A stretch of 8,767 bases of DNA from a virus. Lineage: Duplodnaviria; Heunggongvirae; Uroviricota; Caudoviricetes. Position 1 is the first letter of the stretch. Each line of letters begins with the position of its first letter. Location: IMG/VR virus record IMGVR_UViG_2534682078_000033. One strand, given 5' to 3'. The position numbers were made by a program. Positions 3,001 to 6,000 of the stretch are shown piece by piece.

Positions 3001-6000
3001 GCGATTTCACCGCGCATGGCGGTTACTATGAATCCGGCGTTGCTTTCACCGTCCAGTTTTACGGATTCCATGCCTTCAATAACATCATGCGGGATCCGAG
3101 CTGTCAGTGATTGTGATTTTGCGTTTTTTGAACCTGTAGCCATCTGTAATCCTCTCAATGAAAGTGTAAGACAATATACACATAAAAAGTCTTACATAAA
3201 AGCATTGACATGTAAGCCACCTATAAATAAAGTTACTTACACCTTGTTAATGCAAGGTGCAGAAACGACGAAACCCCGCACTGTAGGAGCAGTAACGGGG
3301 CTTCTAACCACCAACGATAACGAGAGTATCGAGGTAGCTATGAGAAATCATACCACACACCCGCAAGGGCGGGACTCGCACAACCTGAATAAATACATTT
3401 GGCGTTTTATCGCCCTGAGCACTGCACAACCGCGCGTGATTACCATTGAGGCCACCAGCGAACAGGAAGCACGCCTGCAATCCCCGGCTGGCTGCGTGAT
3501 GGTATTCGCTGCCCGTATTCGTCAGGGGGTAGGCTTATGAGCCAGGAAATCACACTACAACAGGCAGCAGAACGCGCCCACCAAATCGAAGTTATTTGCG
3601 CACTGGCAGAGGATTACCCAAGCATGATGACCGACAGAGAATCAGGGGCAATCATCAGCTTACTTAAACGCCTTAGCGGTGAGGTCTGCGTATTCCTGAT
3701 CGATGAACAGGAAAGAAGAACGCTTATTTCTAACGAAAAAAATGCGGAGGGGTACATGTGCAATAAAACCACACCGGACGCAGCCGCCGCGCTCACTACG
3801 CTGATACACGCACTTATTGATATTGAATGCACGGCAGAGCTTGCGCAGGGAGAAGAACAGAAAGACCGGACACAGTTCGCCCTGGAATGTATCCGATACA
3901 TCGCAACGCGGTCGCTGAATGACGCTAAAAATATTCTTGTTGCTGATTGTGAAAATGGGGGGGGGTTATGCGTGATGATCGTTTTAATTCCCTGAAACAA
4001 GAATTTTCCGGCGTTCCTGATGATGCGGCTGATGCGCTTTCGTCAATGCCAGAACTTATTAGAGCGGCTTTTTTCTTACTTTCCACGAGAGAATATAAAT
4101 CAACGGGACTTGATGTACTGAATATCGCCGCCGATTATGCGGAATATGTGGCAGAGGCGCGTTACAGAAGAAAATTTCCTGAGGATGTAAGCCATGCGTG
4201 ATATTTATCTTGAAACAATAGACCGCGCATCACTTGCACTTTCTCACAGTGAAAACATGATGGAAATATTGCGGATGTGCCTTGAATCCTTTGGCGATAA
4301 TGAACGTAATGCAAAAAAACGCGGATTATTACATCATTAATAACGCTTCTTGAGTCTGTAATAAATGAGTTGCAGGAAATAGAGACATTGCACGACAGAT
4401 ATAACGAACAGCACACCGGAGAATAAAAATAATGAAACTTAAATATTCTGGCTTAACTGCCAGTGGCAACACTCACCCTAAATTTACGCGCGGTGATATT
4501 TACCGCGACCAGTACGGCGGCACGGTAATGATTAAGGGCGTGGCGGGACGGTGCGTAACTTACCGCCGTGAAGGTTACGAATATGATTGCGTGATGCCTG
4601 TTTATCAGTTCCGGCGTGATTTTTCTCTGGTACAGACCGCGCCGCATAACGTGCCCACCAGCAACGCCAGGGCACGGGCAAACATCCAGAAGCTGAAAAC
4701 CATGATTAACGGATTCAGGGGCAAGAAATGAAAAGCGCACCGAACTTAAAAAAACAGCCTTACGACAAGATGACCGAAGTCATCATTTTTGCGGGTAGTG
4801 ATGCGTGGGCACATGCGAAACAGTGGCAGGAACAGGACGGGCGACTGGCTGGCGATAATGTGCCTCCCGTTGTGCTGGCTGATGATCAACTGGATGAACT
4901 GGCAGACCTGAGAATCATCGACGAGGGGCGCTATTGTGTCCGGCTGTACAAGGCAGGCCACATCAGGCCATCAAATATTAATGCCATTGCGCACAAGCTG
5001 GCGGCGGCGGGTGTAACTGATGCGAATTATTACCCCGAAGGGATGCACAGCCAGAAGCGGGAGAACTGGCGCGAATATCTGGAACGGGAGCGGGGGAAAA
5101 AGCCAGGGGAAGAAAAACACCACCAGCGAAAAACCACGCTACCAATGAGCGTGGGATCTGCCGGATACGACACACAACTTGATTACGTGGTTAAGGGGAT
5201 TATTCCGGCGGTATCGCTGTGCAGCATATACGGGGCGAGCGGTTCATATAAATCGTTCCTTGCGGGTTCGTGGGCGTGTCACGTTTCCACGGGCCGCCAG
5301 TGGGGAGGCCGCAGGGTGGCGCATGGCGCTGTTCTCTATGTGGTTGGTGAAGGCGGTATCGGCGTTCCGCGTCGTGTAAAAGCCTGGGAGGTTGTGCACG
5401 GTGAGCAGGTGAAAAATCTGTATCTGGTAAACCGTCCCATCTTTCCGGCTGCCCCGCTTGATGTTGAGGAAATGGTTATCGCTGCCCGTCAGGTGGAACG
5501 GGAAACGGGTAAACCGGTTCGAATGATTATTCTGGATACGCTGGCGCGCTGCTTTGGCGGCAATGATGAAAATGATTCCCGTGATATGGGGGCGTTTATC
5601 CGTGGGTGTGACGAACTGAAACGGCGCACAGGGGCAACGGTGCTGGTGGTTCACCATTCCGGCAAGGATGAAACAAAGGGGGCGCGTGGTTCCAGTGCAT
5701 TTCGTGCATCACTGGACGCCGAATACCGGATACGCAGGGAGGACGCAGGCAGCGAAGCGCTGGTTATCTCATGTACCAAAATGAAGGACGCGGAGGAACT
5801 CAAAGAAGCAGCATATGACTTACGCGTGGTGGAGCTTTTTACCGACGCTGACGGGGAGTTAATCACGTCGCTGGTGGTGGTGGATAAGCCGCGCCCTCCC
5901 GTTGAACTGGAGCGCATCGAGGAGGCAGGGAACAAGACGGAGAATCACGCCGCGCTATGGCAGTGCATCAGAACACGAACAGCACACGGGGAGGCGTGCA

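What the first reader, a model, noticed from the sequence alone, without database searches (positions are those of the whole stretch)
4313..4426. A7 slippery tract near the end of a 48-codon ORF with a protein-like -1 frame extension
ORF 4194..4340 contains AAAAAAA (4313-4319). The -1 frame after the tract encodes TRIITSLLTLLESVINELQEIETLHDRYNEQHTGE and stops at 4424-4426, 5 nt before the next gene start. Without the shift there is a 92-nt gap with no ORF. This fits a programmed -1 frameshift or transcriptional slippage, or a one-base homopolymer indel (true A8).
Basis: seen in the sequence. Interest (0 to 1): 0.5.

Follow-up and report, generated by a model that had tools for sequence, protein, structure and literature searches.

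The report
One-base poly-A indel splitting a gene
The A7 run is one base shorter than the A8 run that keeps this 77-codon phage-satellite gene in one piece in almost all other E. coli, so it is an ordinary homopolymer frameshift (mutation or sequencing undercall) and not a programmed frameshift signal.

Summary
In detail: an A7 run (4313-4319) lies in phase (GCA AAA AAA) near the end of ORF 4194..4340, and the -1 frame stays open to TAA 4424-4426. The two frames are the two halves of one known 77-aa protein family, phrog_2196.

This is not recoding. The window matches the E. coli E2863 element over 8767 bases with zero substitutions and two homopolymer length differences: A7 vs A8 here, and G9 vs G8 at 3957-3965. 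With A8 the gene is a contiguous 77 codons (WP_001205000.1). More distant homologues (88% identity) have no long A run at this position (AAACAAAAAT) and are also 77 codons.

Across public assemblies, A8 products occur on at least 1396 contigs, A7 on about 79 and A9 on at least 12, spread over at least five haplotypes. RefSeq marks the A7 and A9 alleles 'frameshifted'. No stimulatory RNA structure follows the run.

A7 is a genuine inherited allele in one gut-metagenome lineage. In the window's own source (E. coli 2534-86 draft), the neighbouring differences are all homopolymer undercalls, so a sequencing error is somewhat more likely. The shift removes helix 2 of a predicted two-helix hairpin. 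Low interest.

The parts
4194..4426 (+). Whole disrupted gene: a 77-codon phrog_2196-family gene of a PICI-type phage satellite, split by a one-base shortfall in its poly-A tract.
   Evidence: The joined product matches phrog_2196 over 1-74 of 74, E 1.1e-30. It is identical to WP_001205000.1 of E. coli E2863 once the run is A8. 431 protein clusters were found; nearly all of the 120 listed are 77 aa with 100% coverage, apart from a few partial or 93-aa entries.
4194..4340 (+). Zero-frame ORF as it stands (48 codons). Residues 1-42 are authentic; the last six (RGLLHH) are out-of-frame read-through.
   Evidence: Residues 1-42 match phrog_2196 positions 1-42. This exact 48-aa product is on 16 contigs in the protein collection.
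4313..4319 (+). A7 homopolymer; A8 in the intact gene, A9 in a few records. This is the site of the frameshift.
   Evidence: The only differences from L001 over 8767 bases are this run and the G run. Complete genomes: 1 record A7, 1 record A9, 58 of 60 listed rows A8.
4319..4426 (+). The -1 frame continuation, encoding residues 43-77 plus the stop of the intact protein (almost all of helix 2).
   Evidence: This peptide alone matches phrog_2196 positions 44-74, E 3.9e-10. 21 of the 37 invariant alignment columns lie here. The AlphaFold2 model has helices 2-32 and 37-75, mean pLDDT 93.
4432..4731 (+). Downstream neighbour, a DUF4222 gene. It starts 5 nt after the stop of the intact 77-codon gene.
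   Evidence: Pfam PF13973, E 2.1e-23. The same 5-nt spacing is seen in L001, L002 and L003.

Best explanation
The region 4194..4426 is a single 77-codon gene of an E. coli phage satellite (PICI-type island). It encodes a small two-helix hairpin protein of unknown function (phrog_2196). In one allele group, codons 40-43 are GCA AAA AAA ACG, which makes an A8 run. In this window the run is A7, one base short. Translation therefore leaves the frame after Lys42, adds RGLLHH and stops, losing almost all of helix 2.

The shortfall is a non-programmed homopolymer indel. It is either slipped-strand contraction during replication or a homopolymer undercall during sequencing. For this particular record I put it at roughly 60% sequencing/assembly error and 40% real mutation.

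Any full-length protein from the A7 allele would come only from background-level -1 slippage on the in-phase A_AAA_AAA, or from occasional addition of an A by RNA polymerase. That would be a by-product, not a designed mechanism.

What is shown: the identity of the two halves, the A8 and run-free states of homologues, and the allele tallies. What is inferred: loss of function, the artefact-versus-mutation split, and the level of leaky rescue.
For: 1. Window vs E. coli E2863 (L001): 8767 bases, 0 mismatches, 2 single-base gaps (A7 vs A8; G9 vs G8). With A8, PGAP annotates a 77-aa CDS.

2. Homologues at 88% identity (O157 SS52, Nissle 1917) read AAACAAAAAT at the site and are also 77 codons. The 331-nt query finds 853 of 5426 complete genomes, and every full-length row listed spans 332 bases.

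3. The family length is fixed. Of 431 clusters, 120 are listed, and nearly all of those are 77 aa with 100% coverage, apart from a few partial or 93-aa entries.

4. Both halves hit consecutive parts of phrog_2196.

5. Contig tallies:
- A7 products: 16 + 20 + 2 + 6 + 35 = about 79 contigs.
- A8 products: at least 1000 + 131 + 55 + 27 + 8 + 175 = at least 1396 contigs.
- A9 products: at least 12 contigs.
A7 occurs on at least 5 gene haplotypes, in PICI backbones that differ by 2-12%. This indicates a recurrent hot spot.

6. PGAP flags the A7 allele (STEC299) and the A9 allele (2013C-4081) as 'frameshifted'.

7. Evidence for an artefact in this record. The window is 100% identical to L015, the E. 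coli 2534-86 draft. Over 10 kb, L015 differs from its closest relatives only by homopolymer lengths (A6 vs A7 in the integrase, A7 vs A8 here, T7 vs T8, C vs CC) with no substitutions. L011 and L017, the other A7 assemblies of this element, each carry their own private homopolymer deletion.

8. Evidence that A7 can also be real. In the N20S haplotype, eight metagenome assemblies from several studies carry A7. Six of these loci differ from one another by 0-2 substitutions and show no other indels. Their nearest A8 relative differs by 2 mismatches plus the run. That these are short-read Illumina assemblies is my inference from contig names, not something verified.

9. No stimulator: the downstream folds have z = 0.14 and -0.12 against shuffles.
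Against: Three independent assemblies of the same element (L011, L015, L017) share A7. This could mean a real clade allele rather than three errors, although they were found by searching for the A7 product, so the sample is biased towards A7.

The heptamer is exactly in phase for tandem -1 slippage. A7 alleles also persist in a circulating lineage. So some functional rescue cannot be excluded from sequence alone.

No read data could be examined.
Confidence: 0.9

Rival explanations
1. Programmed -1 ribosomal frameshifting (or programmed transcriptional slippage) on A_AAA_AAA. This would produce both a 48-aa product and a 77-aa trans-frame product as a designed feature of the gene.
For: The heptamer is in the correct phase, GCA AAA AAA. 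The -1 frame encodes the conserved C-terminal half. A_AA.A_AA.A is among the motifs with more than 0.10% frameshifting without a stimulator in E. coli, and IS elements use it with stimulators (PMC4066793).
Against: The split arrangement is not conserved. A8 or a run-free in-frame gene is found on at least 1396 contigs and in 853 complete genomes, against about 79 contigs with A7. The A8 relative is otherwise base-for-base identical. No downstream structure is present (z about 0), and reading the upstream sequence shows no Shine-Dalgarno-like stimulator. Without a stimulator, heptamers give only 2-10 times a 0.055% background. Selection against slippage-prone A or T runs in coding regions becomes evident at about nine bases in many bacterial genomes; A7 is below that (PMC1088944).
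Confidence: 0.03
2. The A7/A8/A9 run is a phase-variable (contingency) switch. It would turn a conserved satellite gene off and on heritably and be maintained by selection.
For: Length polymorphism recurs on at least 5 haplotypes. A second run in the same operon, the G run at 3957-3965, also varies between G7, G8 and G9 with effects on ORFs. A7 persists in a lineage seen across several metagenome studies.
Against: A8 is short for a classical contingency tract in a mismatch-repair-proficient enterobacterium. Off alleles are only about 5%. Most family members lack the run altogether, so the run is not a conserved feature of the gene. The pattern fits mutation-selection balance at a mutational hot spot, plus sequencing error.
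Confidence: 0.06

Closest known systems
WP_001205000.1, 77-aa hypothetical protein of E. coli E2863 (locus tag EL381_RS14215); PHROG family phrog_2196
   Same: Identical nucleotide sequence apart from the run length. It sits in the same position in the same satellite, between a 77-aa ORF and the DUF4222 gene.
   Different: It has A8, so it is a single intact ORF. The window has A7.
RefSeq pseudogenes CFI09_RS27560 (E. coli STEC299, A7) and A2F94_RS26515 (E. coli 2013C-4081, A9), both annotated 'frameshifted'
   Same: The same gene, with the same run one base too short or one base too long.
   Different: STEC299 carries a different gene haplotype in a different satellite backbone. 2013C-4081 carries the opposite change, +1.
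Programmed -1 frameshift sites of E. coli dnaX and the IS3/IS911 families (A_AAA_AAG or A_AAA_AAA plus stimulators)
   Same: An in-phase lysine-codon heptamer that allows tandem tRNA-Lys re-pairing in the -1 frame (PMC4066793).
   Different: Those sites are conserved among homologues and flanked by Shine-Dalgarno-like and/or stem-loop or pseudoknot stimulators. Here the site is a minority allele, and no stimulator is found.
Adventitious rescue of indel alleles by polymerase or ribosome slippage (for example Citrobacter rodentium tssM, PMC4256274; examples in PMC1088944 and PMC5009743)
   Same: A frameshift in a poly-A run inside an otherwise conserved gene could be partly corrected during expression.
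   Different: In the dnaX and IS-element cases I read (PMC1088944) the runs are 8-9 bases. I saw PMC4256274 and PMC5009743 only as search-result abstracts. From memory, documented rescue cases have runs of about 9-11 or more with measured rescue. Here the run is 7 and nothing has been measured.

Membership tests
Programmed -1 ribosomal frameshift site | Slippery heptamer X_XXY_YYZ in phase with the zero frame | tested here: met
   GCA AAA AAA CGC; A_AAA_AAA at 4313-4319.
Programmed -1 ribosomal frameshift site | Stimulatory element: a downstream hairpin or pseudoknot at 5-9 nt, or an upstream Shine-Dalgarno-like sequence | tested here: not met
   Folds of 4320-4420 and 4323-4375 are no better than shuffles (z 0.14 and -0.12). 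Only weak AU-rich hairpins form. The upstream sequence GGCGATAATGAACGTAATGC has no Shine-Dalgarno-like motif.
Programmed -1 ribosomal frameshift site | The two-frame arrangement and the shift site are conserved among homologues | tested here: not met
   Homologues are contiguous 77-codon genes with A8 or with no long A run at this position. A7 is on about 5% of contigs.
Programmed -1 ribosomal frameshift site | A trans-frame protein is made at a defined ratio | not testable with these tools
   Needs a reporter assay or mass spectrometry.
Programmed transcriptional slippage site | An A or T run long enough for efficient RNA-polymerase slippage (about 9 or more in many bacteria, per PMC1088944) and conserved as out-of-frame | tested here: not met
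   The run is 7 bases. The out-of-frame state is not conserved.
Homopolymer indel allele (frameshift pseudogene or sequencing undercall) | It differs from an intact orthologue only by the length of a mononucleotide run | tested here: met
   0 mismatches and 2 one-base homopolymer gaps over 8767 bases against L001.
Homopolymer indel allele (frameshift pseudogene or sequencing undercall) | The two ORF fragments match consecutive parts of one protein family | tested here: met
   phrog_2196 positions 1-41 (E 2.2e-15) and 44-74 (E 3.9e-10).
Homopolymer indel allele (frameshift pseudogene or sequencing undercall) | Read-level confirmation of the run length, to separate mutation from error | not testable with these tools
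   No reads are available. Indirect evidence: the source draft L015 has other homopolymer-only discrepancies. Metagenome assemblies of another lineage that show no other homopolymer indels carry A7.
Phase-variable contingency locus (simple-sequence-repeat switch) | Run-length polymorphism among close relatives that changes the reading frame | tested here: met
   A7, A8 and A9 occur on otherwise identical sequence.
Phase-variable contingency locus (simple-sequence-repeat switch) | High-frequency reversible switching within a clone, with the run conserved as a feature of the gene | tested here: inconclusive
   Switching rate cannot be tested here. The run is absent from most family members, which carry the DKQKS-type alleles.
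PICI-type phage satellite (genomic context) | Integrase, AlpA-like regulator, replication module (primase or RepA helicase), and small-terminase or capsid genes in one compact island | tested here: met
   Pfam hits: Phage_integrase, Phage_AlpA (below the curated cut-off), AAA_25 RepA-type helicase, Terminase_2, Phage_capsid. The PGAP annotation of L001 agrees. Induction by a helper phage was not tested.

The most novel reading that the evidence does not exclude
The poly-A run, together with the poly-G run 350 bases upstream, could act as a heritable length switch that tunes expression of small conserved satellite proteins. The in-phase A_AAA_AAA of the A7 state would give a low but biologically used level of full-length protein, making the allele hypomorphic rather than null.
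Probability: 0.05. Interest if true: 0.4.

Novelty: already known. Interest (0 to 1): 0.08.

Why it matters
The practical value is for annotation. The 48-codon ORF and the 91-nt 'gap' should be annotated as one frameshifted 77-codon gene, and this window should not be counted as a recoding candidate.

It also shows that an in-phase slippery heptamer with a protein-like -1 frame is exactly what a one-base deletion in a Lys-Lys poly-A run produces. Comparison with homologues is therefore essential before proposing recoding.

A minor biological point: the A8 run is a recurrent indel hot spot in a widespread family of E. coli phage satellites. At least one circulating lineage carries the truncated allele.

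Tried and rejected
- Stimulatory RNA structure downstream of the run: none better than shuffles.
- Antisense ORFs 4162..4416 and 4329..4472: no PHROG match. The longer one is broken in the A8 relative. Rejected as genes.
- Rfam gathering scan of the whole window: no hit.
- Exact A7 pattern in IMG/VR viral contigs: 0 hits. The A8 pattern gave 5 hits.
- Back-translated search of one genome per species (GTDB): no confirmed relative. The family seen here is essentially Escherichia/Shigella (names).
- Function assignment: no Pfam hit, and the PHROG is of unknown function. Foldseek against PDB and BFVD returns only generic helical hairpins with E above 0.1. No function is claimed.
- Openness of the -1 frame as evidence in itself: rejected, because 34% of 35-codon windows in this sequence lack stops.

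Full report
**Observation.** The window holds AAAAAAA at 4313-4319 inside ORF 4194..4340, which has 48 codons and ends NAKKRGLLHH*. The zero frame reads GCA AAA AAA CGC, so the run is an in-phase A_AAA_AAA heptamer. The -1 frame from 4319 reads TRIITSLITLLESVINELQEIETLHDRYNEQHTGE and stops at TAA 4424-4426. That stop is 5 nt before the ATG (4432) of a DUF4222 gene. Otherwise the description is accurate.

An open 35-codon frame is not remarkable here: 34% of all 35-codon windows in this sequence lack a stop. A7 or longer runs are also frequent, with 16 matches against 5.4 expected. The real support is homology. The N-terminal 42 residues match positions 1-41 of PHROG family phrog_2196 (E 2.2e-15). 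The -1-frame peptide alone matches positions 44-74 (E 3.9e-10). The joined 77-aa sequence matches 1-74 of 74 (E 1.1e-30).

**Context.** The window is a PICI-type phage satellite of E. coli. It carries:
- an integrase (1..1074, cut at the window start);
- an AlpA-like regulator (1571..1777);
- an Icd-like gene followed by several small ORFs;
- a DUF4222 gene (4432..4731);
- a RepA-type helicase (4728..6128);
- a small terminase (7193..7681);
- a major capsid protein (from 7841).

**What the A7 is.** A 331-nt query around the site finds 853 of 5426 complete E. coli genomes, and every full-length row listed spans 332 bases, one more than the window. The best relative, E. coli E2863 (L001), aligns to the whole window with 0 mismatches and two single-base gaps: A7 vs A8 at this run, and G9 vs G8 at 3957-3965. 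With A8, PGAP annotates a contiguous 77-aa protein, WP_001205000.1, whose sequence equals the zero-frame part plus the -1-frame part.

Homologues at about 88% identity (O157:H7 SS52, Nissle 1917) read AAACAAAAAT at this position. They have no long run and are also 77 codons. A protein search finds 431 clusters, nearly all 77 aa with full coverage. The A8 run belongs only to the 'NAKKT' allele group, while most members read DKQKS or NKQKS. So the ancestral and prevailing state is an in-frame gene.

**Population picture.** With an 81-nt query in complete genomes, 58 of the 60 listed rows are A8, one is A7 (STEC299) and one is A9 (2013C-4081). PGAP marks both exceptions 'frameshifted', and both sit among other frameshifted neighbours.

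Contig counts in the 15-billion-protein collection:

| Run length | Contigs per product | Total |
|---|---|---|
| A7 | 16 + 20 + 2 + 6 + 35 | about 79 |
| A8 | at least 1000 (capped) + 131 + 55 + 27 + 8 + 175 | at least 1396 |
| A9 | at least 11 + 1 | at least 12 |

A7 sits on at least five gene haplotypes, in satellite backbones that differ by 2-12%. The run is therefore a recurrent indel hot spot, and A7 is a minority state of about 5%.

**Artefact or mutation?** Both occur.

In the N20S haplotype, A7 is found in eight metagenome assemblies from several studies. Their contig names suggest short-read Illumina gut metagenomes, but I did not verify the platform. Six of these loci differ from each other by 0-2 substitutions and show no other indels. 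Their nearest A8 relative differs by two substitutions plus the run. That allele is real and inherited.

The window itself is 100% identical to contig AFDS01000061.1 of the E. coli 2534-86 draft (L015). Over 10 kb, that draft differs from its closest relatives only by homopolymer lengths, with no substitutions: A6 vs A7 in the integrase just upstream of the window, A7 vs A8 here, T7 vs T8, and C vs CC. The two other A7 assemblies of this element each carry a private homopolymer deletion: A5 for A6 at window 108-113, and A7 for A8 at 6261-6268.

Selecting assemblies by the A7 product thus enriched for error-prone assemblies, which points to a sequencing undercall in this lineage. I put this at about 60% artefact and 40% real mutation. 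Only the reads can decide.

**Consequence for the protein.** An AlphaFold2 model built from 33 homologues (mean pLDDT 93) is a helical hairpin, with helix 1 at residues 2-32, a GDNE turn, and helix 2 at residues 37-75. The frameshift after Lys42 removes almost all of helix 2. That part holds 21 of the 37 invariant columns, so the 48-aa product is very likely non-functional. Fold searches return only generic hairpins (E above 0.1), and Pfam has no match. The function stays unknown.

**Could it still be recoding?** The heptamer is in phase, but three points argue against it:
- There is no downstream structure (z 0.14 and -0.12) and no upstream Shine-Dalgarno-like element.
- Sharma et al. (PMC4066793) report that heptamers without stimulators give only 2-10 times a background of about 0.055%, with A_AA.A_AA.A listed among motifs above 0.10%.
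- Baranov et al. [quoted passage not shown]

Any rescue is therefore expected at the sub-percent level and would be adventitious. Programmed recoding also fails the conservation test.

**Minus strand.** The antisense ORFs have no family match, and the longer one is broken in A8 relatives.

**Verdict.** This is an ordinary one-base homopolymer frameshift in a conserved 77-codon satellite gene. RefSeq already handles equivalent alleles as 'frameshifted' pseudogenes.

Noticed in passing
window 3957-3965: A poly-G run (G9) sits 2 nt before the ATG of ORF 3968..4201 and inside the end of ORF 3537..3995. Related loci carry G7, G8 or G9. G7 puts the two ORFs in one frame; the O157 SS52 locus is annotated as a single 154-aa CDS, and phrog_2512 spans both parts. 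The G9 product is on 677 contigs and the G8 product on 53. All four A7/A8 x G8/G9 combinations appear to exist on otherwise identical sequence; the A7+G8 combination rests only on adjacent NCBI accession numbers, not on an inspected locus.
   Followed up: partly
L015 position 796 (about 12 nt upstream of window position 1); window 108-113; window 6261-6268: There are other homopolymer-only differences among near-identical assemblies. The source draft has A6 where relatives have A7 in the integrase, which breaks that gene. L011 has A5 for A6 at window 108-113. L017 has A7 for A8 at 6261-6268. This is the signature of homopolymer-error-prone sequencing.
   Followed up: yes
window 1732-3540 (+): A 602-codon stop-free ORF with low-complexity-looking translation overlaps three to four small minus-strand genes. 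PGAP annotates those in the E2863 relative, one of them as YlcI/YnfO family. The last 66 codons of the long ORF are the Icd-like gene (phrog_6196). The ORF is called as a gene in the 2534-86 draft. 'Icd-like' proteins of 428-429 aa exist in related elements. It is unclear whether the long frame is real or an antisense shadow.
   Followed up: no
window 2092-2166 and 2770-2844: A 75-nt direct repeat (83% identity). Each copy contains the inverted repeat GCGCCGT...ACGGCGC and lies at the 5' end of a minus-strand small ORF. No Rfam family matches anywhere in the window.
   Followed up: no
window, whole: Runs of A7 or longer (or T7 or longer) are about three times more frequent than in dinucleotide shuffles: 16 matches against 5.4 +/- 2.8. 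They include A8 runs at 6261-6268, 7208-7215 and 7940-7947, the last two inside the terminase and capsid genes. The element is therefore rich in indel-prone sites.
   Followed up: partly
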